DNA of 64,000 nt from the NCBI GenBank assembly GCA_017991615.1, contig JAGOQF010000002.1, positions 50,750-114,749 on the forward strand, written 5' to 3'. The notes beneath the pieces were generated by a model, which saw nothing but the letters and a program-made list of their open reading frames with translations, searched no databases and was not told where the DNA came from. Below are positions 3,267 through 64,000 of this stretch, one piece after another. Within the stretch, counting starts at the first letter, position 1. Each line of letters opens with the position of its first letter. A program made the position numbers and the translations under genes. This DNA comes from Candidatus Shapirobacteria bacterium. GTDB taxonomy: Bacteria; Patescibacteriota; Microgenomatia; UBA12405.

Positions 3267-3497
3267 GTGAGTGGAATGAAAATAAAAACGAAGCCTGATA
3301 TTGAAAGTGTTGGTAAATATATGGTTTTTATTGAAAGTTGTAGGTTTCTTTCCGATTTAAATCTTTTTTTGAAAAAAAACAATGGTTTATTTTCTAAGTT
3401 TTATATCAATTCGATTTTTGAGAATAAAATCAAAAGTGATTTGAATATAATTTGGCTTGGTAAAAAAGATTTGAAAAAAAATATAAAGAAAATATAA
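3267..3497 (+). CDS. Small hypothetical protein upstream of radical SAM gene
   Basis: 76-aa ORF in the AT-rich islet with no recognisable motif. Coding status uncertain. Confidence 0.2.
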   Translation: MSGMKIKTKPDIESVGKYMVFIESCRFLSDLNLFLKKNNGLFSKFYINSIFENKIKSDLNIIWLGKKDLKKNIKKI

Positions 3498-3565
3498 TCG
3501 TTCCTAAATGGATTTTAGCGGAAGATAATTTTGAAAGAATTATATCTGGAAAATGGAATGAAATA

Positions 3566-4714: not shown

Positions 4715-4879
4715 ATTTTTAGAAAATGTGAATAAAAAAGGCGGAGAAAATTTTGAAAGTAGTCAACATAGGTTAGTTTTAGAAAAAATTGATAAACAAA
4801 GAGAATAATTAGATTTTTTGATCACAACTGAATTAATAAATTTAGATAAGATAATAAGAAAAATATTATTTTGGATCTA

Positions 4880-4948
4880 ATGTTTACGCTTATTGGTAAT
4901 AATATTACTATTGGCTTGGGGAATTTTTTATCCAAATACAATTATTGA
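4880..4948 (+). CDS. Unannotated 22-codon ORF (MFTLIGNNITIGLGNFLSKYNY), candidate small peptide
   Basis: ATG...TGA read directly from the sequence downstream of the rSAM gene. No clear RBS, so speculative. Confidence 0.15.
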   Translation: MFTLIGNNITIGLGNFLSKYNY

Positions 4949-4968
4949 GAAAACAAGGTAATATAGTT

Positions 4969-5037
4969 ATGAAAATGGGTAATAAAAATATTTTTTACCC
5001 ACAGACTTTTTACTATTGCCAGTGGTTTTGGAATTGA
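4969..5037 (+). CDS. Unannotated 22-codon ORF (MKMGNKNIFYPQTFYYCQWFWN), aromatic-rich candidate RiPP precursor
   Basis: ATG...TGA read directly. The C-terminus is rich in Tyr/Phe/Trp/Cys. Weak AAGG 14 nt upstream. Speculative. Confidence 0.2.
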   Translation: MKMGNKNIFYPQTFYYCQWFWN

Positions 5038-5066
5038 GTCAAATAGGATTAAATTTATCCTTGTAA

Positions 5067-6230
5067 TTAAGAAATAAATTTAATTAAAGGGACAAACATC
5101 TCATTTGGACTAGTACCCCCATGGTTACCAATGTGACATTCTTTTTTTTCAGTTAATAAAAAATCTTTTATGATGTAATTTTCTTTCATGACTAGAATAT
5201 AGTCACCAATCCTATCAATTAAATTTTTATTTGGTTTAAATAAACCGAAAACTCCTTTATCTAAAAGATCAATACTTTTATAAAGCTGACAGCAAAAATC
5301 TAAATTATCTTTAATATATTTTTCAAATTGTTGAGTTTTTTGAGGGTGGACATAACAATAAGCAGCTCTGGATTCACCTGATAAGGGCATTGTTAAGGTT
5401 TCAACTAGTTTTGGATGATTTTGAAGGAGAATTATTTTTGGTTTTTCAGTAGTATCAATTAATCCATGATCGGCGGTAACAATTAAAGCAGTATTAGTAC
5501 CTTTTAATGACTTTGAAAGTGATGATATTTTTTTATCCAATTGCCAAAAATGATCATTTACTTTTTTACTAGCACAACCATTTTCATGACACAAAGCATC
5601 AAATTTATCCCAATAAACATAAATGTATTTTTTTTTATTTGATGATTTGATGATCTTTGTAACTTGTGAAAATAAATCATTAAGATTTTTGTAACCCAAA
5701 AGACTTTTACTTTTTTTATTTACCTTACCATCAATAATATGTTCGGGATAAATAATGAAAGCAGATGATTTGATTTTGTCCACGATTCTTTTTTCTATAA
5801 AAATATCTTTTCTTTGAAAATTATCTTCTGTAAAGTTTTGACCGCCATATCTTGATTTAAAAGGTAAAATTTTGGTTAAAACTCCAATTTCTTTTAAGAA
5901 CATAAACCAGCCGGTAATACCATGTTGTTGAGGAGCCACTCCAGTTTCTAGTGTAGTGGTTGCACTGGCGGTAGTACTTGGAAAAACAGAAGTTATTTTA
6001 TTAAGACAATGTTTACTTAATTCCGAACCTTGACCATATTCTTGAATATATTCATAACCCAAACCATCAATTAGTAAGAGAATGATGTTCTTATATTTCT
6101 TTAAATCACCAAGCTCTTTTAACGGAATGTAATGTGAATTAATGTTAAAGGCTTTCAAAATTGAACTAGTTAAATTGACAATACTGTGTTTGTAGTCTGG
6201 ATAAATCATCTTAATCGAATTATATCTCAA
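5067..6230 (-). CDS. Alkaline-phosphatase-superfamily metalloenzyme (ApgM-like phosphoglycerate mutase / phosphodiesterase-like)
   Basis: 387 aa. LLLIDGLGYEY and VTADHG motifs are typical of the metalloenzyme/AP superfamily. Confidence 0.5.
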   Translation of the reverse strand: MRYNSIKMIYPDYKHSIVNLTSSILKAFNINSHYIPLKELGDLKKYKNIILLLIDGLGYEYIQEYGQGSELSKHCLNKITSVFPSTTASATTTLETGVAPQQHGITGWFMFLKEIGVLTKILPFKSRYGGQNFTEDNFQRKDIFIEKRIVDKIKSSAFIIYPEHIIDGKVNKKSKSLLGYKNLNDLFSQVTKIIKSSNKKKYIYVYWDKFDALCHENGCASKKVNDHFWQLDKKISSLSKSLKGTNTALIVTADHGLIDTTEKPKIILLQNHPKLVETLTMPLSGESRAAYCYVHPQKTQQFEKYIKDNLDFCCQLYKSIDLLDKGVFGLFKPNKNLIDRIGDYILVMKENYIIKDFLLTEKKECHIGNHGGTSPNEMFVPLIKFIS

Positions 6231-6306
6231 TATGGGCCGTAATATCGAAAATACTGTCTTATAAAGAAGATTTAGAATTTACAATAATTGTATTAAAATA
6301 GGTATC

Positions 6307-6392
6307 TGGCGGAAGGAGAGGGACTCGAACCCTCATGCCATTTCTGACGCAGGTTTAGCAAACCTGTGGCTTACCATTCGCCGCATCCTTCC
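6307..6392 (-). tRNA. tRNA-Ser (anticodon GCU)
   Basis: The reverse complement folds as a cloverleaf: acceptor GGAAGGA/TCCTTCC, anticodon stem CAGGT/ACCTG with loop TTGCTAA, long variable arm, T-loop GGTTCGAGTCC, 3' GCCA. Confidence 0.8.
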
Positions 6393-6478
6393 TAAACTAG
6401 ATCGTAGATTGTAGATCGTAGATATATTAGTGGATAAGTATACCAAATTTTAGGTTTTTGCTTTATTATTAAGATAGG

Positions 6479-21402: not shown

Positions 21403-21497
21403 GGAGATAGTTTATCAAGTTTGTCAAGTTCATCAAGTTTGTCAAGTTCATCAAGTTATAAAGTATAGGAAATATTTTGGATTTTTTAGGGATTGGA
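21403..21497. repeat. 9-bp-periodic tandem repeat (GTTnnTCAA x about 6)
   Basis: gtttatcaa gtttgtcaa gttcatcaa gtttgtcaa gttcatcaa gttataaag read directly. The same family recurs at 37.2, 43.3 and 62.8 kb. Confidence 0.7.
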
Positions 21498-22482: not shown

Positions 22483-23430
22483 ATGACAGAAAATAAACAA
22501 ATTTTAGATACATTGATAATCGGGTCGGGTCCGGCAGGACTGACAGCGGCAATTTATAACTCAAGAGCGAATTTAAAAACAATGGTGATTGCTGGCAATC
22601 AACCAGGAGGACAGCTAACCATTACAACCTTGGTGGATAATTATCCTGGCTTCCCTACCGGTGTGGGTGGATTGAAATTGATGATGGATATGCAACAACA
22701 GGTGAAGAATTTTGGGGTGGAAATAAAACAAGGGGTGGTGACGGCGATTAACAAGATTGACGGCTCAGCAAACTTTAGAGTAAAACTGGAAAGCGGAGAA
22801 GAAATAGAAACAAAAACAGTGATTGTAACTACCGGAGCGGCAGTTAAATGGTTGGGGTTGCCTGGGGAAAAAGAATTGATCGGTCGAGGAATCAGCGGTT
22901 GCGCTACCTGCGATGGGATGTTTTTTAGAGGCAAAACAGTGGCGGTGGTTGGTGGAGGAGATACAGCCTGCGAAGAAGCTGATTTTTTGGCGAAAATATG
23001 TCAAAAAGTTTATTTAATTCACCGACGAGACGAATTGAGAGCTTCGGCAACAGAGCAAAAAAAAGTGTTAAACAATCCTAAAATAGAAATTTGGTGGAAC
23101 AGCGAAGTAAAAGGCTTAAAAGGAAAAGAAAAATTGGAGGCAGTGGAGGTGATTAATAATAAAACTCAAGAAAAAAAGGAATTGATTTTGGACGGGTTGT
23201 TTGTGGCCATCGGCAGTCAACCGGCAACAGAATTTTTGAAAGGATTGGTAGAACTAAGCCCAACAGGACAGGTATTAACTGGGGGTGATAAAAATTGGGT
23301 GACTATGACCAGTGTGCCGGGGATTTTTGCTGGCGGAGATTGTGTTAACAACCGTCATAAACAGGCAATTGTGGCAGCAGGAGAAGGTTGCCGGGCGGCT
23401 TTGGATGCAGAAAATTGGTTGAATAGCTAG
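22483..23430 (+). CDS. trxB: Thioredoxin-disulfide reductase
   Basis: 315 aa. FAD motif IIGSGPAGLTAAIY, redox-active CATC, NADPH motif VVGGGDTACEEA. Confidence 0.85.
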   Translation: MTENKQILDTLIIGSGPAGLTAAIYNSRANLKTMVIAGNQPGGQLTITTLVDNYPGFPTGVGGLKLMMDMQQQVKNFGVEIKQGVVTAINKIDGSANFRVKLESGEEIETKTVIVTTGAAVKWLGLPGEKELIGRGISGCATCDGMFFRGKTVAVVGGGDTACEEADFLAKICQKVYLIHRRDELRASATEQKKVLNNPKIEIWWNSEVKGLKGKEKLEAVEVINNKTQEKKELILDGLFVAIGSQPATEFLKGLVELSPTGQVLTGGDKNWVTMTSVPGIFAGGDCVNNRHKQAIVAAGEGCRAALDAENWLNS

Positions 23431-23465
23431 TATCTGGTATTTAGTATTTGGTATTTAGTATAAAA

Positions 23466-24623
23466 CTAACAATTAGAGTTTTTTGAATTCTTAAAGGTTA
23501 GTTGATTTTTTGAAACAAGTTTTTTGATTTTTTGAATAAAGGTTTGGGTGGAGAACTTGGCGGCGCGGGAAATGCAATCAGACGGGTTGATGTTTAATTT
23601 TTGAAATTTTTGGATAGCTTGGGCGCAAGACTGAGGGGTAAGTTGGTCAAAAAAGACACCAGTTTTGCCGTCAATAACGGTTTCAGTGACTCCGCCGCTA
23701 CGGTAAGCAATAACCGGGCAACCATAACTCATTGATTCAACCGGGACGATACCAAAATCTTCCTGATCGGCGGAGAAAATAAAGGCTTGAGCGTTACGAT
23801 AAAGCTGAGATTTAGTCTCTTGATCGACTTCACCAACAAATTCAATGGTGGGTCCGGAAATTTGTTTGAGTTGATTTAAAACTCCGGAAAAATCGCGGCC
23901 AAAAATTTTTAATTTCAAATTGAGCTGATTACAAGCATTGATGGCAATATCAAAACGTTTAGCTTGAGCCAAACGACCGCCAGCAAGAAAGTATTTAGTA
24001 TTTGGTATTAAGTATTTAGTATTTTGAGATTTGGGGAGATCAACGGGGGGATTGATAACGATAGCTTGACGACGATAAAACTTTTGGATACGAGCGGCGG
24101 TAGTGCGAGAATTAGCGATATATTGGTCAACATTTTGGGAATGATGAAAATCGCGAAGACGAAGGAAGTGATTTAAAATATTAATAAAAAATTTAACGAT
24201 AGGGTTTTGGGTAAAACGACGGGCGGTAGGCAGACCGTAGAGATAACGAGGCGGAGTGTGACAATAACAAATAAGTTTGGCTGATTTTTTGTTTAGAGAA
24301 TTGGGAAAATAAGCGCCGGTGGCAGAGGTAATAATAATATCAAAATCAGAAAAATCAAAAGATTTGAAAGCTAACGGAGAAATCAAACGGAGCGGACTGA
24401 TGATTTTGTGAGCAAAGGGAATAAATTTAAAAAAACTTTGATGAATTCGATGATCCCATTTTTGACGAAGACGAGATTGATGAGGACCAAGAGAAGCGGG
24501 ATGATAGATGGATGTAAAAATGGGAGCTTTTGGAAAAATATCAGAAAGAGTTTCTAAAACACTTTCGGCGCCGCCGAACTCTTTGATATAGTCTTGAACT
24601 AGAGCAATTTTAGGAGAAGACAT
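23466..24623 (-). CDS. Glycosyltransferase family 4 (GT-B, group 1)
   Basis: 385 aa. EDFGIVPVESMSYGCPVIAYRSGGVTETV is the GT4 C-terminal EX7E region. Contains an internal copy of an intergenic repeat. Confidence 0.7.
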   Translation of the reverse strand: MSSPKIALVQDYIKEFGGAESVLETLSDIFPKAPIFTSIYHPASLGPHQSRLRQKWDHRIHQSFFKFIPFAHKIISPLRLISPLAFKSFDFSDFDIIITSATGAYFPNSLNKKSAKLICYCHTPPRYLYGLPTARRFTQNPIVKFFINILNHFLRLRDFHHSQNVDQYIANSRTTAARIQKFYRRQAIVINPPVDLPKSQNTKYLIPNTKYFLAGGRLAQAKRFDIAINACNQLNLKLKIFGRDFSGVLNQLKQISGPTIEFVGEVDQETKSQLYRNAQAFIFSADQEDFGIVPVESMSYGCPVIAYRSGGVTETVIDGKTGVFFDQLTPQSCAQAIQKFQKLNINPSDCISRAAKFSTQTFIQKIKKLVSKNQLTFKNSKNSNC

Positions 24624-33368: not shown

Positions 33369-33642
33369 TAATCTAATTATATAAAATTAATAATAAAATA
33401 GTAGTTGTAGTTAGTAGTAATGGTTAATAAGTGAATAAATTTAAAATTAAAGGTAATGATAGGTTAAAGATAAATTTAATGGATGTTGAAAGAGATAATT
33501 AGGTGAAAAATTGAGGGTTTTTTTGAAATTTTGGCTTATAAGTTGAATTGAGATTAGGGTTAGTTTCGGTGGGAAAGATAAAAAATAAATGTGGAAAAGT
33601 TGGTGGATAAGTGAGATAATTTTGTGGATAAATAAAATAAGT
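33369..33642. promoter_or_regulatory. oriC segment (dnaA-dnaN intergenic): AT-rich DUE-like tract plus DnaA boxes
   Basis: TGTGGATAA (perfect, 33623-33631), TGGTGGATAA and TGTGGAAAA variants. About 80% AT. Confidence 0.55.
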
Positions 33643-34983
33643 TTAAAAAGATGATTTTATTTGGTTGATAAGTTTAGTAGTTTGTGGATTAGTGGATAAA
33701 TCTTGGTGGATTTTGTCACGAGCATGCATAATACTAGTATGATCACGACCACCTAAAAGTCGACCAACTTCTTCCAAGGAAAGATTAGCTTCAGTGAGGA
33801 GAATATAAGCGGTTAGATGACGAGCATAGACCAAATCTTTTTTTCGACTGCGACCACAGAGGTCACTAGTTTTAATGTTGAAAGTTTTAGCACAAACAGA
33901 AATAAGATGGCGAGGATTAATTTTGGAGCTAGAAAATGGATTTAAAGAGGAATTTTTGTCAGGATTAAGAAAATTTTGAACAAAACTTAAATCAATGGGA
34001 ATAATTTTTTGAGCGCTGGATTGGATTAAAATTTGTTTAAGCTTACCTTCGATTTCGCGGATATTTGATTCGATATTAGTAGCTAGAAAAGAAATAGCTT
34101 CAGGAGTAATTTGAATTTGAAATTCTTCAGTTTTTTGTTTGATAACAGCGACTCTCATTTCATAATCAGGAAGTTGGATATCAACTGTTAGTCCGCCCAT
34201 AAATCGAGAAACTAGCCGATCTTCAAGGTGGTCAATTTCACTAGGTTTACGATCAGAGGTGAGAATAATTTGTTTACCTTTCATATGAAGGGCATTGAAG
34301 GTGTGAAAAAATTCTTCTTGGGTATATTCTTTGCCAGCTAAAAATTGAACATCATCGACTAGAATACAGTCTAGATTACGATATTTATCTTTAAACTGAT
34401 TCATAGTTTTGGACTTAAGAGAAGCTACAAGTTCGTTACTGAAGGTTTCGGCGGGAAAATATTTAATTTTAAATTGAGGATTGTTTTTGAGAAGTTCATG
34501 ACCGACAGCTTGCATAAGATGGGTTTTACCAACTCCTACCCCACCCCAGATAAAAAGTGGGTTATAAGAGAGACCGGGATTTTTGATAATACCCTGGGCG
34601 GCGGCATAGGCAAAATTGTTACTATTGCCAACAATGAGGGTGTCAAAGGTGAATTTAGGGTGAAGATTATGTTGAAAGGAAGTATTTTTTGGAGTGTATT
34701 CAAATAAAGGAGAGTTAATAGGTGAAGGATTAATTAAAGGTTCTTGAACAATAAATTCAAGAGTATTTTGAGTTTTGGTTTGGTTATCTAGGGCATCTTT
34801 AAAAATTTGGTAGTAGCGTTTTTTGTTGATATCGACCAAATAGGAATTGGGACAGGCTAAAACAGCTTTATTATTTTGGAGGCTGATGAGTTCAGTTTTA
34901 CTAACAAAAGTTTGGAAAACCGCTGGCGCCAAGACAATTTTTAATTCTTCTTGTGTGTTTTTCCAAAGGCGGTTAATATCCAT
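33643..34983 (-). CDS. dnaA: Chromosomal replication initiator DnaA
   Basis: 446 aa. AAA+ Walker A GGVGVGKTHL, Walker B LDCILVDDVQF, and C-terminal DNA-binding helix-turn-helix. Confidence 0.9.
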   Translation of the reverse strand: MDINRLWKNTQEELKIVLAPAVFQTFVSKTELISLQNNKAVLACPNSYLVDINKKRYYQIFKDALDNQTKTQNTLEFIVQEPLINPSPINSPLFEYTPKNTSFQHNLHPKFTFDTLIVGNSNNFAYAAAQGIIKNPGLSYNPLFIWGGVGVGKTHLMQAVGHELLKNNPQFKIKYFPAETFSNELVASLKSKTMNQFKDKYRNLDCILVDDVQFLAGKEYTQEEFFHTFNALHMKGKQIILTSDRKPSEIDHLEDRLVSRFMGGLTVDIQLPDYEMRVAVIKQKTEEFQIQITPEAISFLATNIESNIREIEGKLKQILIQSSAQKIIPIDLSFVQNFLNPDKNSSLNPFSSSKINPRHLISVCAKTFNIKTSDLCGRSRKKDLVYARHLTAYILLTEANLSLEEVGRLLGGRDHTSIMHARDKIHQDLSTNPQTTKLINQIKSSF

Positions 34984-35161
34984 GAAACTTAAGAAAGTAA
35001 ATTAGTAAATGGGTGGCAGAGAATAAAATTTCGGGGAGGAAATTAAGTTATCCACATAATAATAAATGAGTTTTCCACAAAAGAAAAGAAGAAGATAAAA
35101 AGGAAATAAAGATTGGGCGTTATTTAGCCAAGTAAATTAAAATTGTGATAAAATTTGACTT
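34984..35161. promoter_or_regulatory. oriC segment / dnaA promoter region with DnaA boxes
   Basis: Perfect TTATCCACA at 35048-35056 and TTTTCCACA at 35072-35080, between divergent dnaA and rpmH. Confidence 0.55.
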
Positions 35162-36687: not shown

Positions 36688-37161
36688 ATGAATAATAAAA
36701 AAAGAAATGAAAAAATTCTAAAAATCGCTTGTGATTTTCTGGAAAAAATAAATTTTGAAGTAGAAAAAGCTTTTGTGGAGGATGTGGAGGGAGAAGAAAA
36801 TCAGGTGTTGGTGGGAGTGACAGTAACTAACCCGGCAGGGTTGATTGGATTTAAAGGTAAAAATTTGGTATCGGTACAGTTAATTTTGGGATTGATGGTT
36901 AGAAATCAGGTGGGAGAAAATATTAGGGTATTGTTGGATGTAAATAATTATCGAGTGGAACAACGGGAAAGGTTGGAAAAAACTGTCAGAGGATTGGCGG
37001 AGAAATGTTTGTTAAGTCACAGAAATGTAGCTTTGGCGAACATGAGTTCTTATGAGAGAAGAATTTGTCACATGATTGTTTCGGAGATAAGCGGAGTGGT
37101 GAGTGAATCGGAAGGAGAAGGCGAAGAGCGGCATGTGGTGATAAAGCCGAAAAGGGATTAA
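36688..37161 (+). CDS. Jag/KhpB-like RNA-binding protein (KH + R3H)
   Basis: 157 aa. Position after yidC. Contains an R3H-like segment (SYERRICHMIVSEISG). Confidence 0.55.
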   Translation: MNNKKRNEKILKIACDFLEKINFEVEKAFVEDVEGEENQVLVGVTVTNPAGLIGFKGKNLVSVQLILGLMVRNQVGENIRVLLDVNNYRVEQRERLEKTVRGLAEKCLLSHRNVALANMSSYERRICHMIVSEISGVVSESEGEGEERHVVIKPKRD

Positions 37162-37560
37162 TTAAGTTGAAAGTTTGTCAAGTTTATAAAGTTTATCAAG
37201 TTCATCAAGTTGAAAGTTCATCAAGTTTATAAAGTTTGTCAAGTTCATAAAGATCTCAGTTTTTCAGATCTTAGATCCGCCGGTGGGCGGATAGGTCTTA
37301 GAAAAATATTTTAGCTTGACAACATTTTTGTCGTCCTCGCACCTTCGCCAGAAGGCCTCAGCGGCTTGCGGGCGAAAAAATATTGTCGGCGCTAAAATTA
37401 GATTTCAGTTTTTCAGATCTCAGATATCAGGAAAACAATAAAAAAGATTTAAGATTTAAGATGTAAGAATCCGTTGGTGGGCGGATGGGTAAAACGATAG
37501 TTGACTCCCCTGCTGGTGGTGTTTGGGTAGGTTTAGGGGATTTTGTGGTAAGATTGGGGT
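37162..37560. repeat. Composite intergenic repeat locus
   Basis: GTTnnTCAA 9-mers from 37165, two tccgccggtgggcgga-type hairpins, cagatct repeats, an 89-bp TIR element, and gatttaag repeats. All read directly from the sequence. Confidence 0.75.
37309..37397. mobile_element. About 89-bp element with imperfect terminal inverted repeats (copy 1 of 3), MITE-like or structured ncRNA
   Basis: Left end ttttagcttgacaacattttt, right end aaaaatattgtcggcgctaaaa (about 17/21 inverted match). Internal hairpin ccttcgccagaagg. Other copies at 43357 and 62873. Confidence 0.5.
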
Positions 37561-38796
37561 GTGAAAGAAGGTTTGGAAAAAATTAGTAAAATAATTCTGT
37601 TTTGGTTGTTGTTGTTGATACCAACTCAGTTGGGTAAGCATTTTTGGTTTGATTGGAGCTTGGTTTGGGGAATGAGAGTGGATTATTTTTCACCGACGGT
37701 TTATGTGATAGATATTTTGTTTTTAGGATTGTTTTTGATTGAAATATATCGACAAGGAGTAGATTGGAAATCAATAAAAAAGAATTGGTGGATAGTAGGG
37801 TTGGTAGTAGTTAATTTGTTGATAGCCAGTAATAGATGGGTGGCAGGGTATCGATGGTTGAGGTGGGGTCAATTGATGTGGTTTGGAGGGTATGTAATTA
37901 AAAATAAAAGGTGGGTAGAAATTTATTTGGGAAAGGTGATCCCCTACTGGTTGATAGTGGAGGGTTTTTTGGTGTTGGCGCAAATTGCCAAAGGGGGAAG
38001 TTTGAATGGAATATGGTGGTGGCTGGGTGAAAGAAAATTTGATTTTAGTACTATTGGGGTGGCACAAATGTCGGTGGCCAATGTGGGATTGGTGCGAGGA
38101 TATGGAACTTTTTCTCATCCGAACAGTTTGGCAGGGTTTTTGTTGGTGAGTTTATTGTGGTGGTTGAAATATTATCGACAGTTATTTTTAATAAGTTGGG
38201 GAAAATTGAAATGGTGGATAGTGTTTTGGTCGGGGTTGATGGGGATATTATTGTCAGGAAGTCGGACAATTTGGTTACTGACTTTGGTGGCGATATTGAT
38301 GTGGTGGAGATTTAATTATCGTAATAGTAAAGAAAGAATAGTTTTTTGGTTGTTGGTGGGAGTGGGATTATTTTTAGGATTAGAAATGATTGATTTTAAT
38401 TATCCGTTGGCAAATTTTTTGTCAGGGTGGGATGAAAACGGAATGATTAAAAGAGGTCAATTAAATTTGGCGGCAGTGGAGATGATTAAGAGTTCACCAT
38501 GGTTTGGGGTGGGTTTGGGTAATTTTTTGGTAAAATTGCCTCAATTTCAGAAAAATAATCAGATTTTTTGGTTTCAACCGGTTCATAATGTGATACTACT
38601 GTTGGTATCAGAAACGGGATTGTTGGGATTGGTGGCAGTAATTTGGGGATTAAGAAAAAAAATAGATTGGCAAAATTGGAGCAAATTAACATGGTTAATA
38701 TTGGGAGTGATATTTATTAGTGGAATGGTAGATCATTATTGGTTGACTTTACCTCAAAATATGTGGTTGTTGACGTTGGTGATAGCGTTAATTTAG
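37561..38796 (+). CDS. O-antigen ligase/polymerase-like (Wzy_C) polytopic membrane protein
   Basis: 411 aa (GTG start) with many TM helices. The loop with SGSRT resembles the Wzy_C/O-antigen ligase family. Confidence 0.5.
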   Translation: MKEGLEKISKIILFWLLLLIPTQLGKHFWFDWSLVWGMRVDYFSPTVYVIDILFLGLFLIEIYRQGVDWKSIKKNWWIVGLVVVNLLIASNRWVAGYRWLRWGQLMWFGGYVIKNKRWVEIYLGKVIPYWLIVEGFLVLAQIAKGGSLNGIWWWLGERKFDFSTIGVAQMSVANVGLVRGYGTFSHPNSLAGFLLVSLLWWLKYYRQLFLISWGKLKWWIVFWSGLMGILLSGSRTIWLLTLVAILMWWRFNYRNSKERIVFWLLVGVGLFLGLEMIDFNYPLANFLSGWDENGMIKRGQLNLAAVEMIKSSPWFGVGLGNFLVKLPQFQKNNQIFWFQPVHNVILLLVSETGLLGLVAVIWGLRKKIDWQNWSKLTWLILGVIFISGMVDHYWLTLPQNMWLLTLVIALI

Positions 38797-40355: not shown

Positions 40356-43301
40356 ATGGGTGTGGGATTGCCATCAGCATTAATAATAGGAATTGATCAT
40401 TTTGTAGCTAAGAAATTAGCTAAAGAATTAGTGAATAAAGATATTCAAGTGACTGGAGTGGGGCAATTAACTTTGGGTTTTGAGGAAGTAAAAAATTTTG
40501 AATGGAAGGAAAATATAGAAGAAGTGACAGGGGAGTTTAATTATGTGTTTGATTTTGAAGGGGATAAACAAATATGGCAAAGACTGACAGCAGATAAATT
40601 TACGTTAATATCGGTTAATAATGAGGTAAGAAGTAATTATCTAGCTAGAGAAGTGACGGGTTGGGAGGCTGATTGGCGGGTGGTGGATGCTAAAGAAGTT
40701 TATGGGGAAGGGATGGAAGAAAATAGTTTATTGGGAAAAACGTTGATGAGGGCAGTGTTAAACAAAAATTTGGAATTACCAAGTCCAGAGACGAAAATTA
40801 GATTATTGGCAGTAAATGACTTGGTGGAAGCAATTTTAAGAGCTTGTTTTTTGTCAGGGACGGAGAGGGAGTATTTTTTGGTGCTGGGGAAAGAAATTAG
40901 GGTTGAGGAAATGGCAAAAATTTTGATGGATAAGGCGAAAATGACCAGATTTAAAGTAATGGAGACAGGGGTAAAAATTGATCAAGGAAATGAAAAGTTG
41001 GCGGAAGTTAGTGAATCTCAACTAAGATGGCGGGCAGAAATTCCTTTTGAAAAAGGAATAGTGACGACGTTGCAGTATTTCTTTTCTAAGGCGGATGAAG
41101 AAAATCGGCGGGGTAAAAAAACTAAACCAATACCTCAGAAATCGGTAAAAGAAGTTAGACGACGACCGTTTGCGGTGGTGGTGGAGGAGAAAGAGACGGA
41201 AGTGGAAGAAGAAGTAGTGCCGGAGATATTAAAGGAAGATAATAGTAAGATATTAGAGACAAAAGTGACAGTATTTAAAGAGGAGGAGGAAGAGGAATTT
41301 GAGATTCCAAGATTAATTGAGAATAAACAGAAACAGATAGATGAAGTTAAAGAGGATGAGACTTATATTGAAGAGGAGAGTGAAGATTTAGTGAGAATGG
41401 AGACGAAAGAAGTGAATATAAAGGAAGAAGGACAAGATAAACTTAAAGTAAGAAATAAAAAGGTGGGTCGATGGTGGTGGTTGGTAGTGGTAATTTTGGG
41501 ATTATTGATTTTAGTCTGGCCAATAAAACAGTTGTGGATAGTTCGGTCAACAATTGGAGTGATTACTAAAGCACCAGAGTTGATTAGAAATAAAAAATAT
41601 AACCAAGTGGAGGTGGTGGCAGACACAAAAATAAAGGAATTATCGGCGATTGATGAGAAAATAAATGAGTGGGGGTTAAATAGTTTGGAAATGGTGAGAA
41701 ATTATCAAACGGGGATAAGAGTATTAATAGATTTTTTAACAACAGAAAAACAGTCTTTGAATTTAATTAGGACTATGGATGAGATGAGTGAAGCGGTGTT
41801 TGGTGAGAGGGAAATTAATTGGGAAGATCAATTGATAGCCATAGATAGTGGTTTGTTGGAGACGGAAAATAATTTGGGAATTTTGCAAGCAAGATTGTCA
41901 GGTGGGTCGGGGTGGATACCTCGGAAATGGCGAGGGATAATTCAAGAGGGTTTAAAAACAGTTGAGGAGTTAAAAAAGCAATTGAGTTTAGGGAGGGAAG
42001 TGATAAAAATAGCGCCAGAGATGTTGGGTTTGGATGGAAGAAAACGGGAGTATATGGTGTTATTTCAGAATGAATCGGAAATCAGGCCGACAGGGGGATT
42101 TATTGGCAATTATGGGTTGATTAGTTTTCAAAAAGGCAAGTTGATTGGATTTGAAGTTAAAGATATTTATGAAGCAGATGGTCAGCTTAAGGGCCATGTG
42201 GAACCACCTTGGGAGATTAAGACTTATTTAGGGGAAGCTAATTGGTATATGAGAGATGCTAACTGGAACCCTGATTTTGTGAAGACGAGTGCTGATATTC
42301 AGTGGTTTTTGGAAAAAACGACTCAGAAAAAAGTAGATGGAGTGATTGGAATTGATTTGGCGGTAGTAAGATCGATGTTAAAAGTGACTGGACCAGTAAA
42401 GGTGACTGATTTTAAGGAAACAATTGATGAAAATAATTTGTATGAGCAAGCAGAATTTTATGCCGAGACAAAATTTTTTCCGGGTTCGGGACAAAAAGCA
42501 AGTTTTTTGGGAACTTTAGGGAAACAGTTGTTTGAGGAAATTAAGCTGTTGAACACAGAAAAGAAAATGAAGCTTTATCAGGGGTTGATGGAAATGTTGG
42601 AGAGTAATGAGATGCAAATGGCAATAAATAATACAGAAACAGCTAAGGTTATAAATGAGTTGGGTTGGGATGGAAAAATTTATAATGGTAAGTGTGTTGG
42701 AGAAGGTTGTATAACGGATTATTGGTATGTGGTGGAGGCTAATGTAGGGGTTAATAAGGCTAATTATTTTTTGAGAAAAAATATTGAGGAAGGAGTAGAG
42801 TTTGGTGGGGAATCGCTTAATCGGGTAATAAAGATAAATTATGAAAATACAGCCAAAAATACAAATTGGCCGGGAGGGGATTATAAAAATTATTTAAGAA
42901 TTTATTTGCCGAAAGAAGTGGTATTGTCACAGGTTAGTGTGGCTGACGGTCATGATACGACAATTAAAAAAGTTTACAACAGTGAAGAAATCAGGATTAG
43001 GGAAGTTGATGGGAAGAAAGAGGTTGGTTTTTTGGTGATGGTACCGGTGACTAAAAAGCGGATAGTGGAAATAAAATATAGCAGTAAAATTAGTTTAGGG
43101 GATAAAAAAGAGTTTACTTATATGAAATATATTCAGAAACAACCAGGGACAGGCGAAACAGGGCTGGTGAGTTTGGTGTCGTTTGGAGAGGAGTGGCAAC
43201 CGATACAAGTAGAGCCGGTGGCGAGCTTGGTGGGAGGAAAATTGTTGTTTAATCAAAAGTTGAATCGAGATATAAAGATGGGAGTGGTGCTGGGGAGGTG
43301 A
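40356..43301 (+). CDS. Large DUF4012-like protein with N-terminal Rossmann-like region and acidic low-complexity linker
   Basis: 981 aa. The central TM VLFQNESEIRPTGGFIGNYGLI matches the DUF4012 hallmark (xxRPTGGxxGS), common in cell-envelope polysaccharide loci. Confidence 0.5.
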   Translation: MGVGLPSALIIGIDHFVAKKLAKELVNKDIQVTGVGQLTLGFEEVKNFEWKENIEEVTGEFNYVFDFEGDKQIWQRLTADKFTLISVNNEVRSNYLAREVTGWEADWRVVDAKEVYGEGMEENSLLGKTLMRAVLNKNLELPSPETKIRLLAVNDLVEAILRACFLSGTEREYFLVLGKEIRVEEMAKILMDKAKMTRFKVMETGVKIDQGNEKLAEVSESQLRWRAEIPFEKGIVTTLQYFFSKADEENRRGKKTKPIPQKSVKEVRRRPFAVVVEEKETEVEEEVVPEILKEDNSKILETKVTVFKEEEEEEFEIPRLIENKQKQIDEVKEDETYIEEESEDLVRMETKEVNIKEEGQDKLKVRNKKVGRWWWLVVVILGLLILVWPIKQLWIVRSTIGVITKAPELIRNKKYNQVEVVADTKIKELSAIDEKINEWGLNSLEMVRNYQTGIRVLIDFLTTEKQSLNLIRTMDEMSEAVFGEREINWEDQLIAIDSGLLETENNLGILQARLSGGSGWIPRKWRGIIQEGLKTVEELKKQLSLGREVIKIAPEMLGLDGRKREYMVLFQNESEIRPTGGFIGNYGLISFQKGKLIGFEVKDIYEADGQLKGHVEPPWEIKTYLGEANWYMRDANWNPDFVKTSADIQWFLEKTTQKKVDGVIGIDLAVVRSMLKVTGPVKVTDFKETIDENNLYEQAEFYAETKFFPGSGQKASFLGTLGKQLFEEIKLLNTEKKMKLYQGLMEMLESNEMQMAINNTETAKVINELGWDGKIYNGKCVGEGCITDYWYVVEANVGVNKANYFLRKNIEEGVEFGGESLNRVIKINYENTAKNTNWPGGDYKNYLRIYLPKEVVLSQVSVADGHDTTIKKVYNSEEIRIREVDGKKEVGFLVMVPVTKKRIVEIKYSSKISLGDKKEFTYMKYIQKQPGTGETGLVSLVSFGEEWQPIQVEPVASLVGGKLLFNQKLNRDIKMGVVLGR

Positions 43302-43590
43302 GTTTATCAAGTTGAAAGTTTGTCAAGTTTGTCAAGTTCATCAAGTTGTAAGTTTATTTTAGCTTGACAACATTTTTGTCGTCCTCGCACCTTCGTAAAA
43401 TCCACTCAGCGGCTTGCGGGCGAAAAAACATTGTCGGCGCTAAAATTAGATGTTAGATTTCAGATCTCAGGAAAACATTAAAAAAAGATTCAAGATTCAT
43501 GATTTAAGAATCAAGAATAAAACAAATCAAGATTAAGTTTTATAAACAGGATAAATTGATATAGAAATAAGAGAATATGTTAAATTAGGA
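43302..43590. repeat. Composite intergenic repeat locus
   Basis: GTTnnTCAA 9-mers, TIR element copy 2 (43357-43445), and agatttcag/aagattcaag repeats. Confidence 0.75.
43357..43445. mobile_element. About 89-bp TIR element, copy 2
   Basis: Same termini as copy 1. The central 11 nt differ (gtaaaatccac versus gccagaaggcc). Confidence 0.5.
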
Positions 43591-43594
43591 GAAG

Positions 43595-43882
43595 ATGAAA
43601 AAAGTGATGGAAAATTTTAAATGCGAGGTGTGTGGGGCGGAAGTTGAAGGAGACGGGACAACGGATCATTGTCCAAAATGTTTGTGGGGTAAACATGTAG
43701 ATGAAGAGGTTCCTGGTGATAGGGCGAGTATGTGCAAAGGGTTAATGAAACCGATTAGAAGTGAATATAGAAATGGCCAGTTTAGGATTTATTACAAGTG
43801 TCAGAGTTGTAACCATGATTTTTGGGTGAGAGAGGGAGAGGAAGATAATCGGGAAATGTTGGTGGAACTAACTAAATACTAG
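43595..43882 (+). CDS. Small zinc-ribbon protein (hypothetical)
   Basis: 95 aa. Four CxxC pairs (CEVCG...CPKC...CQSCNH). Confidence 0.4.
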   Translation: MKKVMENFKCEVCGAEVEGDGTTDHCPKCLWGKHVDEEVPGDRASMCKGLMKPIRSEYRNGQFRIYYKCQSCNHDFWVREGEEDNREMLVELTKY

Positions 43883-44022
43883 TTTCAATTTCATTCCCGA
43901 TATCGACTGTCGTCTCATCGGGATTGGATTTTAAGGCAAAATTATGTCATTTCATTCCAAATTTTGACCTAAAAATCTCAAAAAGATTCAAGATTTATGA
44001 TTTAAGATTTAAGAATAGGATA

Positions 44023-44316
44023 TTACTTTATTTTTGTGAAACGGGGAACCATTTCACCATTAATTTCTGCAGGGGTTAACCAACCATCTTTGCTTTCTAA
44101 GGAACGAATCCAGATGATATGTTCTGGGTGATTCAATTCTTCATATATTACAACGATAGATTCATTGTCTTCTCTAATACCTAAATCTTTGACTAAATAT
44201 TGACCCCCAGTTTTAGTGTGCTGATATTTAGCACCGACTTCGACTAATTGAGTTGCTTGAGTTAGTTTTTGTTGTAGAGTTTTTCTTTCGGTATGAGCCA
44301 CATTTGATTTTATCAC
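44023..44316 (-). CDS. DUF1653-like small protein
   Basis: 97 aa. YQHTKTGGQYLV...VVIYEE...WIRSLE...PRF pattern matches DUF1653. Confidence 0.45.
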   Translation of the reverse strand: MIKSNVAHTERKTLQQKLTQATQLVEVGAKYQHTKTGGQYLVKDLGIREDNESIVVIYEELNHPEHIIWIRSLESKDGWLTPAEINGEMVPRFTKIK

Positions 44317-54413: not shown

Positions 54414-54869
54414 TTATTTATAGTTGACAGTAATTCGGTCGAGTTGGTCGACACCGTTTTGAGCAAGCCAAGCTTGAGCTTCTTGTTTGGCAAGATCGGT
54501 TTGGTCTTCGTGGTAAACAATAATCTCGAGGTTATTGGCGCCGATATAACGTTGGGCACGAAAATATTTGCCTTGATAAGGGAGAAATTTGGCCAGAGGA
54601 ATTTGATAATTGACTTCGGTAATTTGATCGGAGGGGGAAGATTGAGGGTTGGTTGGGGAGGAGTTGTTGGAAGTGTTGGGTTGAGAATTATTTGGTTGAG
54701 AAATGGGATTTTGGTTGGTTTGTTGAGGAGCTAATTGACCGGGTTGGGTGGTGTCAAAATTGTCAGGTGAAGTGGTGGAAGAATGAGAAGAGGAGAGTTT
54801 GATGATGGTAAGAGCAATGACAATAACAGTTAAAATAATGAGATATTTATTTTTAGCAAGAGTTTTCAT
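54414..54869 (-). CDS. Secreted low-complexity (Q/N/S/P/T-rich) protein
   Basis: 151 aa. N-terminal TM/signal, then a QNPISQPNNSQPNTSNNSSPTNPQSSPSDQ tract. Confidence 0.4.
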   Translation of the reverse strand: MKTLAKNKYLIILTVIVIALTIIKLSSSHSSTTSPDNFDTTQPGQLAPQQTNQNPISQPNNSQPNTSNNSSPTNPQSSPSDQITEVNYQIPLAKFLPYQGKYFRAQRYIGANNLEIIVYHEDQTDLAKQEAQAWLAQNGVDQLDRITVNYK

Positions 54870-62779: not shown

Positions 62780-63048
62780 CAAGTTGAGTTGAAAGTTTAT
62801 CAAGTTCATCAAGTTTATAAAGATCTCAGATCTCAGATCCGTCGGTGGGCGGACAGGTATCAGATAATAACATTTTAGCTTGACAACATTTTTACCATCA
62901 TTCAACCTCCATAAAATCCACTCAGCGTTGCGGGGGGAAAATATTGTCGGCGCTAAAATTAGATGTCAGTTTGTCAGATGTCAGTTTCTTGGATCTCAGG
63001 AAAACATTGATATAAAGGATGGGTATGGTTGGGTGGTAGAATTGTCTA
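62780..63048. repeat. Composite intergenic repeat locus
   Basis: GTTnnTCAA 9-mers, cagatctcag repeats, tccgtcggtgggcgga hairpin, TIR element copy 3 (62873-62958), and agatgtcag repeats. Confidence 0.75.
62873..62958. mobile_element. About 86-bp TIR element, copy 3 (most diverged centre)
   Basis: Termini ttttagcttgacaacattttt ... aaaatattgtcggcgctaaaa are conserved. The interior shares ataaaatccactcagcg with copy 2. Confidence 0.5.
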
Positions 63049-63663
63049 ATGAAAGAGAGGAATATATATAAAGAAATGTTTTATATTTTAGCGGGAGTGG
63101 TGATAGTGATGGGGATGTTGATGTTAATAGAGGAAATAAAGGAGAGAAGTAGGTTGCGTGAGATGGAGATGAATAAGCCAGTTGAAATAGTATCGAAGCC
63201 AACATCAATAGTATCTTTTGAGAATAAAAGGGAGCGGTTTTATATGAGTGAATTTAATGACTTGGATAAAAATAAAAAATTGTTAGTAGTGGGAGAGTTG
63301 TCTTTCTTATTGCCAAAAACAAGTTATATTATTGATACTAAAACTAATTTGATTTCGGTAGGTAATCGGTTATATAAAATTCAAGTAGATACGACTCAGG
63401 GATTGTGTGATGACCCATGTTTTTATACTGATGATGAAGATGTTGAGAATATGGATGTTTTAAGATTGTGGAAGGTGGGGGAAGGGGTTTTGGCAATTAA
63501 TCCCCAGAATATAAAAACTGAGGAAGGTGGTTGGGTGAGTATGATTATTCAGAAGTTAGAGACAAATATACCTTTGGGGAAATATGTTTTTTTTACAGAT
63601 AATGAGATTAAAGAGTGGACAGAGATATTGAGTCAGCCAATTTTTTGGGGAAACAGAAGGTAG
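63049..63663 (+). CDS. Hypothetical membrane-anchored protein
   Basis: 204 aa. One N-terminal TM helix. No family call. Confidence 0.35.
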   Translation: MKERNIYKEMFYILAGVVIVMGMLMLIEEIKERSRLREMEMNKPVEIVSKPTSIVSFENKRERFYMSEFNDLDKNKKLLVVGELSFLLPKTSYIIDTKTNLISVGNRLYKIQVDTTQGLCDDPCFYTDDEDVENMDVLRLWKVGEGVLAINPQNIKTEEGGWVSMIIQKLETNIPLGKYVFFTDNEIKEWTEILSQPIFWGNRR

Positions 63664-64000
63664 TTTTTGTAAAAGAATAAAGAGTGGGTGGTAGAATTGT
63701 CTAATGAAAAGGAGAAAAAAATCATTGGGATTAGTGAGGGTTTTAATAATTATAGGAGCTGGGGTGGTAGTGGTTTTTGGAAGTTTAAGGAATTTAATGA
63801 GAACGATTAAATTGGCGATTAAAAGATTTTAGATGAAAAAAATATTTCAGATAATAGTGTTTTTGGTGTTGGTGGGGTGGATGGTGTTGGTGTGGTTAGG
63901 AGAGAAAGGAGAAGTTTTGAGTCCATTGTCTTTGAATCGACAAAAACATAATAGTGACAAAAAAATGGTAACGTTTGGGTTTTTACCAACTTGGATGGTG

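What the first reader, a model, noticed from the sequence alone, without database searches (positions are those of the whole stretch)
37162..37560. Family of composite intergenic repeat loci built from 9-bp-periodic GTTnnTCAA arrays, a GC hairpin and AGATyTmAG-type tandem repeats
Four intergenic sites share 4-8 tandem 9-mers (gtttatcaa/gtttgtcaa/gttcatcaa/gttgaaagt). They lie at 21403-21497, 37162-37560, 43302-43590 and 62780-63048. Three of them continue into cagatctcag-type repeats, a perfect 6-bp-stem hairpin (tccgccggtgggcgga, with variants tccgttggtgggcgga and tccgtcggtgggcgga), the 89-bp TIR element, and a trailing array of agatttcag/gatttaag/agatgtcag repeats. Three loci sit immediately 3' of plus-strand genes or a tRNA: jag, the DUF4012 gene and tRNA-Ile. 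The 9-bp period rules out CRISPR and does not match the 10.5-bp helical repeat. Nothing in standard annotation explains the arrays. They could be protein-binding arrays, for example for a nucleoid, partition or defence protein, or transcribed structured RNAs, or a novel repetitive extragenic element family.
Basis: seen in the sequence. Interest (0 to 1): 0.65.

Follow-up and report, generated by a model that had tools for sequence, protein, structure and literature searches.

The report
Mosaic short-repeat arrays between genes
The four sites are real, fast-changing non-coding repeat mosaics in a Woesebacteria (CPR) genome, and their 9-base unit is the one that, in many distant bacterial phyla, forms the inverted ends of small cassettes carrying a "23S rRNA intervening-sequence" (four-helix-bundle) gene, so they look like selfish DNA and not host signals.

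Summary
Tandem AAGTTYRTM 9-mers lie at four intergenic sites, all on the + strand. Three sites continue into CAGAT-type heptamers and a ~91-nt palindromic core. Two of those three also carry the GC hairpin. Eight independent assemblies have the jag spacer identical, so it is not an artefact.

The element is not conserved. A relative with 96% DnaA identity lacks the 9-mer array and core at the same spacer, and an 81% relative has only 78 nt there.

The same 9-mer family turns up in more than 80 non-coding loci from Bacteroidota, Ignavibacteriota, many CPR lineages, Bdellovibrionota, Desulfobacterota and others. Its orientation relative to genes is random. In 9 of the 10 loci with a close-clade PF05635 gene, a forward array sits upstream and an inverted array downstream. 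The tenth has the inverted array only. The arms fold into a ~40-bp stem, which is the classical IVS architecture. Distant PF05635 genes carry heptamer arrays instead, like cyanobacterial STRRs and the Coxiella and Azospirillum IVSs.

The window has no PF05635 gene. Its arrays are orphan or direct, with a MITE-like core nested in them.

Best reading: STRR/IVS-type selfish mosaic repeats, not a host binding array or RNA gene (confidence about 0.6). This is a new variant of a known kind. The cross-phylum link between arrays and cassettes is the interesting part.

The parts
21404..21467 (+). Solo 9-mer array (about 6 units of AAGTTYRTC, then AAGTTATAAAG). It lies between two minus-strand genes and ends 6 nt from the fpg ATG at 21402.
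37162..37252 (+). 9-mer array of about 10 units, including two short AAGTTGA units. It starts at the jag stop codon.
37251..37276 (+). AGATCTCAG / TTTTTCAG / ATCTTAG heptamer-type repeats. They form a 26-nt direct repeat with 37400-37425.
   Evidence: (D2)
37276..37291 (+). GC hairpin TCCGCC-GGTG-GGCGGA.
37308..37398 (+). Palindromic core, copy 1 (ATTTTAGCTTGACAACATTTTT ... ATTGTCGGCGCTAAAAT). It folds as a long hairpin.
37400..37430 (+). AGATTTCAG / AGATCTCAG trailing heptamer-type repeats.
37444..37468 (+). AAGATTT heptamer array (3.6 copies).
37470..37485 (+). Second GC hairpin, TCCGTT-GGTG-GGCGGA. The variant positions give G-U pairs on the + strand only.
43301..43355 (+). 9-mer array of about 6 units. 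Its first unit overlaps the TGA stop of the DUF4012 gene.
43356..43446 (+). Palindromic core, copy 2 (90% identical to copy 1; the apical segment differs).
   Evidence: (D5)
43449..43516 (+). AGATGTTAG / AGATTTCAG / AGATCTCAG repeats, then an AAGATTC heptamer array (43485-43516).
43888..44014 (+). A further shared module (43888-43985, also found beside composite repeats in related contigs) and an AAGATTT heptamer array (43983-44014).
62781..62819 (+). 9-mer array of about 4 units. It starts at the base after tRNA-Ile(GAT).
62821..62853 (+). AGATCTC heptamers (2.7 copies), then the GC hairpin TCCGTC-GGTG-GGCGGA.
62872..62959 (+). Palindromic core, copy 3 (the most diverged; weakest fold).
   Evidence: (D4)
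62961..62989 (+). AGATGTCAG / TTTGTCAG trailing repeats.

Best explanation
The four sites are copies of a fast-evolving mosaic of non-coding repeats of the STRR/IVS type. In my reading they are selfish or neutral DNA that fills the spacer between a gene end and the next promoter. They are not host signals.

Shown:
- The modules are real, reproducible and recur at other loci.
- They are gained, lost and swapped between close relatives.
- The 9-mer AAGTT-Y-R-T-M is a cross-phylum repeat family.
- In other genomes this 9-mer forms the two inverted, tandem-repeat ends of small cassettes that carry a PF05635 (23S rRNA intervening-sequence, four-helix-bundle) gene. Those cassettes sit exactly between two host genes. 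ORF-less foldback derivatives also exist.
- In those forms the two arrays pair into a 30-40-bp stem.

Inferred:
- The arrays spread with, or are mobilised by the same unknown route as, the PF05635 cassettes. They grow and shrink by slippage and recombination until they meet a gene boundary.
- In this Woesebacteria genome they survive as orphan or direct arrays, into which a ~91-nt MITE-like palindrome (the core) and CAGAT-type heptamers have nested.
- When read through from the upstream gene, the foldback parts (here only the core and the GC hairpins) would form double-stranded RNA. That RNA would be cut by RNase III, as shown experimentally for rRNA IVSs, or would act incidentally as a 3' stabiliser.
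- The mosaics also act as substrates for homologous recombination. One strain variant is rearranged through the core.
For: Reality and recurrence. The spacers are identical in 8 and in 10 independent assemblies. Further core-plus-array loci with the same grammar exist outside the window.

Lack of conservation: the orthologous jag-wzy spacer is 399 nt here. It is 247 nt in a relative with 96% DnaA identity, with no 9-mer array or core and only CAGAT heptamer repeats. It is 78 nt in an 81% relative. The promoter-proximal unique part is kept.

Recombination: contig L124 matches the window up to the core and then continues as another locus.

Cross-phylum family: more than 120 loci match a 23-nt two-and-a-half-unit pattern, against about 0.3 expected on a uniform model (my arithmetic). 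81 loci are clearly non-coding and use the same unit set. Many genomes have 3 to 9 or more loci.

Random orientation relative to genes: anti/anti 43, same/same 27, convergent 13, divergent 9.

Cassette link: I checked 10 loci with a close-clade PF05635 gene. Four came from the pattern scan and six were chosen blind; three of the ten (L027, L251, L252) share one orthologous radA|fbp site. Nine have a forward array upstream and an inverted array downstream. L259 has only the downstream array.

Folding: the stem encloses the ORF in L252. The ORF-less foldbacks in L082 fold with z -4.5 to -7.6 and occur as near-identical copies in successive spacers.

Generality: distant PF05635 genes are flanked by forward and inverted heptamer arrays in Nostoc, Anabaena, Riemerella, Picosynechococcus and an Azospirillum 23S IVS. 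Tandem GACAGAT heptamers, a 28-bp terminal stem and RNase III excision are documented for the Coxiella IVS (PMC4990558). Cyanobacterial STRRs are 7-bp, hairpin-forming and of unknown function (PMC2670836).

The core's left arm is 85% complementary to a 9-mer unit.
Against: - The window has no PF05635 gene or remnant, and none lies in the related core-bearing contigs. The link to cassettes is therefore by shared repeat unit only.
- All window arrays are solo or direct, not inverted, and do not fold convincingly.
- All four arrays and all three cores are on one strand. A purely neutral model does not predict this, although n is small and the strand is also the strongly G-rich one.
- The strict invariance of AAGTT across phyla implies that something recognises the sequence, and I have not identified it.
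- No transposition event, target-site duplication or clean empty site was seen for the core.
- No expression or RNase III data exist for this organism.
Confidence: 0.6

Rival explanations
1. The arrays are host-serving protein-binding arrays. A sequence-specific DNA-binding protein (nucleoid-associated, partition or regulatory, possibly the four-helix-bundle pentamer itself) polymerises on the 9-bp-spaced AAGTT sites and organises or regulates the neighbouring genes.
For: AAGTT is near-invariant (93% A at position 1, 100% at positions 2-5) and position 8 is 90% T in 118 non-coding arrays from many phyla. That argues for recognition of the sequence and not only of the repeat structure. The arrays abut gene starts and stops. 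All window copies are on one strand.
Against: The array is absent from the orthologous spacer in a relative with 96% DnaA identity. Copy number is free, from 3 to 16 units. Orientation relative to genes is random. No candidate binding-protein gene is consistently adjacent other than PF05635, which the window lacks. A 9-bp period puts successive sites on different faces of the helix. Canonical DnaA boxes lie elsewhere.
Confidence: 0.12
2. The elements have been co-opted as mRNA 3'-end elements. The GC hairpins and the core hairpin would end or stabilise the upstream transcript and insulate it from the next gene, as proposed for REP/BIME and for STRRs.
For: Three of the four sites start exactly at the 3' end of a co-oriented gene or tRNA and lie upstream of the conserved promoter-like segment of the next gene. 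The hairpin variants keep pairing through G-U on the + strand only. The STRR literature suggests a role in transcript stability.
Against: No terminator-like site was scored. The hairpins are not followed by T-runs. The 21.4-kb array is antisense to both neighbours. Across loci, the arrays are as often antisense as sense. The elements are dispensable in relatives.
Confidence: 0.12
3. The ~91-nt core is a small structured RNA gene present in several copies, and the flanking arrays are its promoter or processing context.
For: The core has a long stem of about 22 invariant base pairs. Folding z-scores on the + strand are -3.8, -2.3 and -1.2. Two U-G pairs would be A-C mismatches on the other strand. 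All copies are co-oriented.
Against: There is no Rfam hit at E <= 1 and no promoter or terminator. Both strands fold equally well. One of 33 pairs shows a compensatory change and the covariation term is unfavourable. The apical part is swapped between copies. The core is absent at the orthologous site of a close relative. The genome's G/T-rich strand bias can explain the G-U pairs.
Confidence: 0.07
4. The sites are assembly or chimera artefacts, or chance low-complexity sequence.
For: Repeats often break or mis-join short-read assemblies, and several related hits lie at contig ends.
Against: The sequence is identical in 8 and in 10 independent assemblies from different pipelines. The enrichment over shuffles is very large.
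Confidence: 0.01

Closest known systems
Cyanobacterial STRR sequences (short tandemly repeated repetitive heptamers; Mazel et al. 1990, from my own knowledge; PMC2670836; Vioque 1997, cited in PMC4046671)
   Same: Very short units repeated in tandem and dispersed at many intergenic sites, and even inside structured RNA genes. Several unit families occur per genome. They often form hairpins through inverted arrays. Their function is unknown. The window also carries heptamer arrays (AGATCTC, AGATGTC, AAGATTT).
   Different: The main unit here is 9 bp, not 7. The host is a CPR bacterium, not a cyanobacterium. The same unit is shared across phyla. In the literature I could search, STRRs are not tied to PF05635 cassettes, whereas here and on cyanobacterial plasmids they are.
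23S rRNA intervening sequences (IVS) carrying the S23p / PF05635 ORF (Coxiella, Leptospira, Azospirillum)
   Same: In other genomes the 9-mer arrays flank a PF05635 gene as terminal inverted repeats that fold into a long stem. The Coxiella IVS has tandem heptamers (GACAGAT) close to the window's GTCAGAT and CTCAGAT. The Azospirillum IVS has GGACAGA heptamers.
   Different: The window elements have no ORF, are not in rRNA, and their arrays are solo or direct. RNase III processing is untested here.
MITEs with RNA-level effects, e.g. Neisseria Correia elements (from my own knowledge)
   Same: The core is about 91 nt, has ~22-nt terminal inverted repeats, is multicopy and intergenic, and folds into a long hairpin.
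   Different: No target-site duplication, no cognate transposase and no IHF site were found. The core is always embedded in the same repeat grammar and is not inserted at unrelated sites.
BIMEs / REP mosaics of enterobacteria and BOX elements of Streptococcus pneumoniae (from my own knowledge)
   Same: Modular mosaics of several short repeat types, including GC hairpins, at the 3' ends of genes. Module number is variable.
   Different: The sequences are different. No REP consensus or RAYT gene was examined. The tandem units are much shorter (7-9 bp, against 45 bp for boxB).

Membership tests
STRR (cyanobacterial short tandemly repeated repetitive sequences) | Short unit repeated head to tail, usually 7 bp | tested here: inconclusive
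   Period-7 arrays are present (37444-37468, 43485-43516, 43983-44014, 62821-62839), but the defining arrays of this finding have period 9.
STRR (cyanobacterial short tandemly repeated repetitive sequences) | Dispersed at many non-coding sites of one genome | tested here: met
   There are 4 sites in 64 kb, plus further loci in related contigs. The whole-genome count is not available.
STRR (cyanobacterial short tandemly repeated repetitive sequences) | Host is a (heterocystous) cyanobacterium | tested here: not met
   DnaA is 100% identical to a 'Candidatus Woesebacteria' MAG protein, and the relatives are Shapirobacteria.
IVS / PF05635 cassette | Encodes a PF05635 (23S_rRNA_IVP, TIGR02436) protein | tested here: not met
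   No tblastn hit in the window at E <= 1e-3, and only noise in the composite sites at E <= 100. The weak-hit ORF 54414-54869 is not PF05635.
IVS / PF05635 cassette | Terminal inverted repeats that pair into a long stem | tested here: inconclusive
   Met for the core. Not met for the 9-mer arrays in this window, which are solo or direct. Met for the same 9-mers in other genomes.
IVS / PF05635 cassette | Inserted in a 23S rRNA helix and excised by RNase III | tested here: not met
   The sites lie between protein or tRNA genes. Excision is not testable with these tools.
MITE (for the core) | Terminal inverted repeats, small size, multiple copies | tested here: met
   About 91 nt with ~22-bp arms. 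There are 3 copies in the window and at least 5 further distinct variants elsewhere.
MITE (for the core) | Target-site duplication and a related transposase-encoding IS | tested here: inconclusive
   The left flanks differ (AAT, TTT, AAC) and the right flank is always TAGAT, so no duplication is visible. All true hits of the metagenome scan were ORF-less. No transposase search was done.
CRISPR array | Repeats of 24-48 nt separated by unique spacers of similar length | tested here: not met
   The units are 9 nt, head to tail, without spacers.
DnaA-box cluster / oriC | Matches to TTATCCACA-type 9-mers | tested here: not met
   Canonical boxes cluster at 33590-33699 and 35048-35079 beside dnaA. 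None lies in the arrays.
Known RNA family (Rfam 15) | Covariance-model match | tested here: not met
   Only tRNAs reach gathering score. Nothing matches at E <= 1 in 37100-37650 or 43250-44050.
REP/BIME | REP consensus palindromes and a RAYT transposase in the genome | not tested
   Only 64 kb of the genome is available. The GC hairpin TCCGCCGGTGGGCGGA has 3 copies, and no RAYT search was run.

The most novel reading that the evidence does not exclude
The AAGTTYRTM arrays and the PF05635 four-helix-bundle gene together form a so far undescribed, horizontally spreading 'foldback cassette'. Its ends are tandem repeats and not a unique inverted repeat. The Avd-like pentamer it encodes would recognise those repeats, as RNA or DNA, and promote their spread or maintenance, perhaps through an RNA intermediate by analogy with Avd and the reverse transcriptase of diversity-generating retroelements. 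STRRs, rRNA IVSs, the ORF-less foldbacks and the orphan arrays of this window would then all be products of one mechanism. That would give a function to a protein family that has lacked one for 30 years.
Probability: 0.25. Interest if true: 0.8.

Novelty: new variant of a known kind. Interest (0 to 1): 0.6.

Why it matters
Short dispersed tandem repeats (STRRs) and rRNA intervening sequences with their S23p/PF05635 gene have each been known since about 1990. Neither has an accepted origin, mobility mechanism or function.

This window led to three observations that, if they hold up, link the two:
- One exact 9-mer family is shared by distant phyla.
- It forms the inverted ends of PF05635 cassettes that sit precisely between host genes, including inside cas and ribosomal-protein operons.
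- Other PF05635 clades carry other repeat units in the same arrangement.

This makes the question directly testable by asking whether the protein binds its own repeats, and whether the stems are RNase III sites.

There are also practical consequences. Such arrays break assemblies, mimic CRISPR-like repeats in automated screens, and mediate rearrangements.

Tried and rejected
- DnaA boxes or an origin. The arrays lie near dnaA, rnpA, yidC and jag. Rejected: canonical boxes cluster elsewhere.
- Promoter or terminator. The simple scans found nothing at the sites. My hand-reading of TTGACA-like hexamers in the reverse-complemented units gave no consistent -10 element.
- Known RNA family. None found.
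- Covariation in the core. The copies are too similar to be informative.
- Phage origin. The viral hits of the 9-mer pattern are almost all coding AAGTTCATC (Asp-Glu-Leu or Ser-rich) repeats in large ORFs, not the mixed non-coding arrays. The same holds for about 30 of the genome hits.
- A common neighbouring gene. All-against-all clustering of ORFs around the arrays gave only generic families (secreted repeat proteins, ABC ATPases, sigma factors), apart from PF05635.
- A PF05635 remnant in the window. None.
- Population copy-number variation. None among the assemblies holding identical proteins.
- Literature. Searches for the repeat sequence itself, for 9-bp tandem repeats, and for a described link between PF05635 and flanking repeats found nothing specific. 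Subscription journals are not covered.
- Metagenome scan with the core's left end. Most of the 70 hits were unrelated promoter-like matches.
- Rho rut sites, IHF and H-NS motifs. I considered these from memory only and dropped them, because orientation relative to transcription is random.

Full report
**1. What is in the window**

I read all four sites directly.

Each carries head-to-tail 9-mers of the form AAGTT-(T/C)-(A/G)-T-(C/A), with occasional short units (AAGTTGA, AAGTTATAA). A two-unit probe finds 17-18 matches where 0.2-0.3 are expected. Every match is on the + strand and inside the four sites. TRF reports period 9 with 5.4, 8.6, 6.6 and 2.6 copies.

Three sites continue with these modules:
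- AGATCTCAG-type repeats (7 hits against 0.9 expected).
- A 6-bp-stem GC hairpin, TCCGYYGGTGGGCGGA. It occurs 3 times against 0.02 expected, at 37276, 37470 and 62838, and is absent at the 43.3-kb site.
- A ~91-nt core bounded by ATTTTAGCTTGACAACATTTTT and ATTGTCGGCGCTAAAAT, at 37308-37398, 43356-43446 and 62872-62959.
- Trailing heptamers (AGATGTC, AAGATTT).

The arrays begin at or overlap the stop codons of jag (R3H domain) and of the DUF4012 gene, and at the first base after tRNA-Ile. The fourth array lies 6 nt from the fpg start codon on the other strand.

Two details need correcting: the hairpin is missing at one of the 'three' sites, and the core is about 91 nt, not 89.

**2. Not an artefact, and whose genome it is**

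The jag protein occurs on contigs from many anaerobic-digester and sludge assemblies. Eight independent JGI and ENA contigs carry a jag-wzy spacer identical to the window. Ten carry the identical DUF4012-RNHCP spacer.

DnaA is 100% identical to a protein NCBI labels 'Candidatus Woesebacteria', and the next relatives are Shapirobacteria. The organism is therefore a CPR/Microgenomates bacterium.

**3. Not conserved, and recombinogenic**

I fetched the orthologous dnaA-rnpA-yidC-jag-wzy region from relatives.
- In the relative with 96% DnaA identity the spacer is 247 nt. It has no 9-mer array (one and a half units at most), no core and no first hairpin. Instead it has three copies of a 43-nt higher-order repeat built from CAGAT-type heptamers.
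- In the 81% relative the spacer is 78 nt, with three AATTTTC units.
- The ~60 nt just upstream of wzy, which contain a TTGACT-17-TAGGTT promoter-like motif by my reading, are kept in the 96% relative.

So the repeats are an insertion or expansion between the gene end and the next promoter, and they turn over faster than a few percent of protein divergence.

One strain variant (L124) matches the window up to the core and then continues into a different locus. That is a rearrangement through the repeat.

**4. More copies elsewhere**

I scanned metagenome contigs with the core's left end. Among many chance promoter-like hits, the scan returned true cores on at least a dozen contigs that otherwise share nothing with the window.

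These loci follow the same grammar: gene end, then 9-mer array, then optionally AGATCTCAG plus hairpin, then core, then AGATGTCAG repeats. Often a second 9-mer array follows in direct orientation. The core looks as if it sits inside an array.

The family does recur.

**5. The 9-mer is a cross-phylum family**

A uniform model predicts about 0.3 (my arithmetic).

About 30 hits are coding AAGTTCATC-type repeats in GC-rich or large ORFs, as are almost all hits in viral contigs. These serve as a negative control.

The remaining 81 loci, with 118 arrays, are non-coding and use the same unit set as the window (AAGTTTATC, AAGTTCATC, AAGTTTGTC, AAGTTTGTA, AAGTTTATA and others). AAGTT is near-invariant (93% A at the first position, 100% at the other four) and position 8 is 90% T.

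The hosts are Bacteroidota, Ignavibacteriota, Chlorobiota, many CPR lineages, Bdellovibrionota, Desulfobacterota, an Erysipelotrichaceae genome and a MAG labelled Hyphomicrobiales. Several genomes contribute 3 to 9 or more loci each.

Each genome adds its own GC hairpins and heptamers next to the arrays, as the window does.

Orientation relative to the flanking genes is random: 43 antisense to both, 27 sense to both, 13 convergent and 9 divergent. This argues against a sense-strand RNA signal such as a terminator.

**6. What the arrays are attached to**

I clustered the ORFs around the arrays. One small family appeared in five loci from five lineages. [quoted passage not shown]

In four of those five loci the gene is bracketed by a forward AAGTT array upstream and an inverted AACTT array downstream. 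The unit fills exactly the gap between the stop of one host gene and the start of the next.

I then chose six homologues (62-85% identical) from a protein search without seeing their DNA. All six have the inverted array downstream, and five also have the forward array upstream.

Three of the ten close-clade loci (L027, L251, L252) occupy the same radA|fbp junction in different Ignavibacteria genomes, with 68-85% protein identity and intact ORFs. The cassette can therefore be old and vertically kept while its arrays change in unit number.

Folding one cassette as RNA pairs the two arrays into a ~40-bp stem that encloses the ORF. This is the textbook IVS architecture.

ORF-less versions also exist, built as forward array, 9-13-nt loop, inverted array. 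In one Saccharibacteria operon they occupy successive spacers as near-identical copies (z -4.5 to -7.6). That speaks for duplication of whole elements and not for independent slippage.

**7. Generality**

I examined more distant PF05635 genes (30-47% identity) on annotated plasmids.
- Five of seven are flanked by forward and inverted tandem arrays, but of heptamers: GGGAAAA (Nostoc), GGTGACA (Anabaena), GGTTYAA (Riemerella), GGAGATA (Picosynechococcus) and GGACAGA/GGACGGA (an Azospirillum 23S rRNA IVS).
- One has direct arrays on both sides (Pseudanabaena).
- One is unclear.

Several of these genes sit inside cas operons.

The literature supports the same picture. The Coxiella IVS has a 28-bp terminal stem cut by RNase III and a variable number of GACAGAT heptamers before the ORF (PMC4990558). 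Cyanobacterial STRRs are 7-bp tandem repeats that form hairpins between genes, have no known function (PMC2670836), and even occur inside the RNase P RNA gene (Vioque 1997, cited in PMC4046671).

The window's heptamers (GTCAGAT, CTCAGAT) are one base away from the Coxiella unit.

In the literature I could search, I found no paper that links STRR-like arrays to PF05635 cassettes or that describes the 9-mer.

**8. Back to the window**

The window has no PF05635 gene or remnant. Its arrays are solo and do not fold convincingly.

The core does fold, on either strand. Its copies are too alike to give covariation, and Rfam has nothing. The core's left arm is 85% complementary to a 9-mer unit, so it may be a decayed foldback itself. 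This point is weak.

I therefore read the four sites as orphan and derivative members of the STRR/IVS repeat family, with a MITE-like palindrome nested in them.

Some things remain unexplained:
- Why AAGTT is held constant across phyla.
- What moves the cassettes.
- Why every copy in this window is on the same, strongly G-rich strand.

**9. Verdict**

It is not categorically new, because STRRs, IVSs and MITE/BIME-type mosaics are its relatives. It is a new variant in three respects: the 9-bp unit, the CPR host, and the cross-phylum sharing with the link to PF05635 cassettes.

I rate interest at 0.6. The window feature itself is probably junk DNA, but it points to a testable connection between two old puzzles.

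Noticed in passing
window 1-64000: GC skew on the + strand is extreme (+0.2 to +0.59 in 2-kb windows). It does not change sign at dnaA (33643-34983, minus strand) or at the canonical DnaA-box clusters (33590-33699, 35048-35079). Only the first 2 kb are slightly negative.
   Followed up: partly
window 23428-23461 and 23990-24024: A further heptamer family (TAGTATT/AGTATTT, about 5 copies each). One array lies just 3' of the minus-strand ORF 23466-24623, and an almost identical one lies inside that ORF (D11, 6, 70).
   Followed up: no
window 43888-43985: A 98-nt module between the RNHCP gene and the DUF1653-like gene recurs (91-93% identity) next to composite repeats on related contigs L211, L217, L226 and L243. 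It contains a small inverted repeat at 43929-43974.
   Followed up: partly
window 63030-63067 and 63685-63722: A 38-nt direct repeat (87% identity) lies just before two successive ORFs downstream of the tRNA-Ile mosaic. It may be a duplicated 5' region of paralogous genes (D15).
   Followed up: no
L124 (ENA ERZ27250763 k119_27069) 3475-6474: A strain variant in which the jag spacer is recombined through the core into another locus. The genes that follow include a 599-aa protein with a weak mTERF hit.
   Followed up: partly
L276, L279, L280 (cyanobacterial plasmids): PF05635 genes with their repeat arrays sit inside cas operons: between cas6 and cas4 in Anabaena sp. 90 and in Pseudanabaena galeata, and between cmr2 and cmr3 in Picosynechococcus. 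This may explain why '23S rRNA IVP' scores as CRISPR-linked in PMC10910872.
   Followed up: partly
L082 3300-7400 (Saccharibacteria MAG): Successive intergenic spacers of one minus-strand operon (not annotated here) each hold an ORF-less 9-mer foldback. Several of them sit next to a genome-specific GC hairpin.
   Followed up: partly
L264 2825-4177 (relative with 81% DnaA identity): A 450-aa ORF with no Pfam hit lies between rnpA and yidD in this relative. It is absent from the window's rnpA-yidD-yidC-jag cluster.
   Followed up: no
L279 (Pseudanabaena galeata plasmid pPg_01): Very regular heptamer arrays lie on both sides of the PF05635 gene in direct, not inverted, orientation: AAAGCTA about 15 times upstream and AAAGCCA about 10 times downstream.
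   Followed up: no
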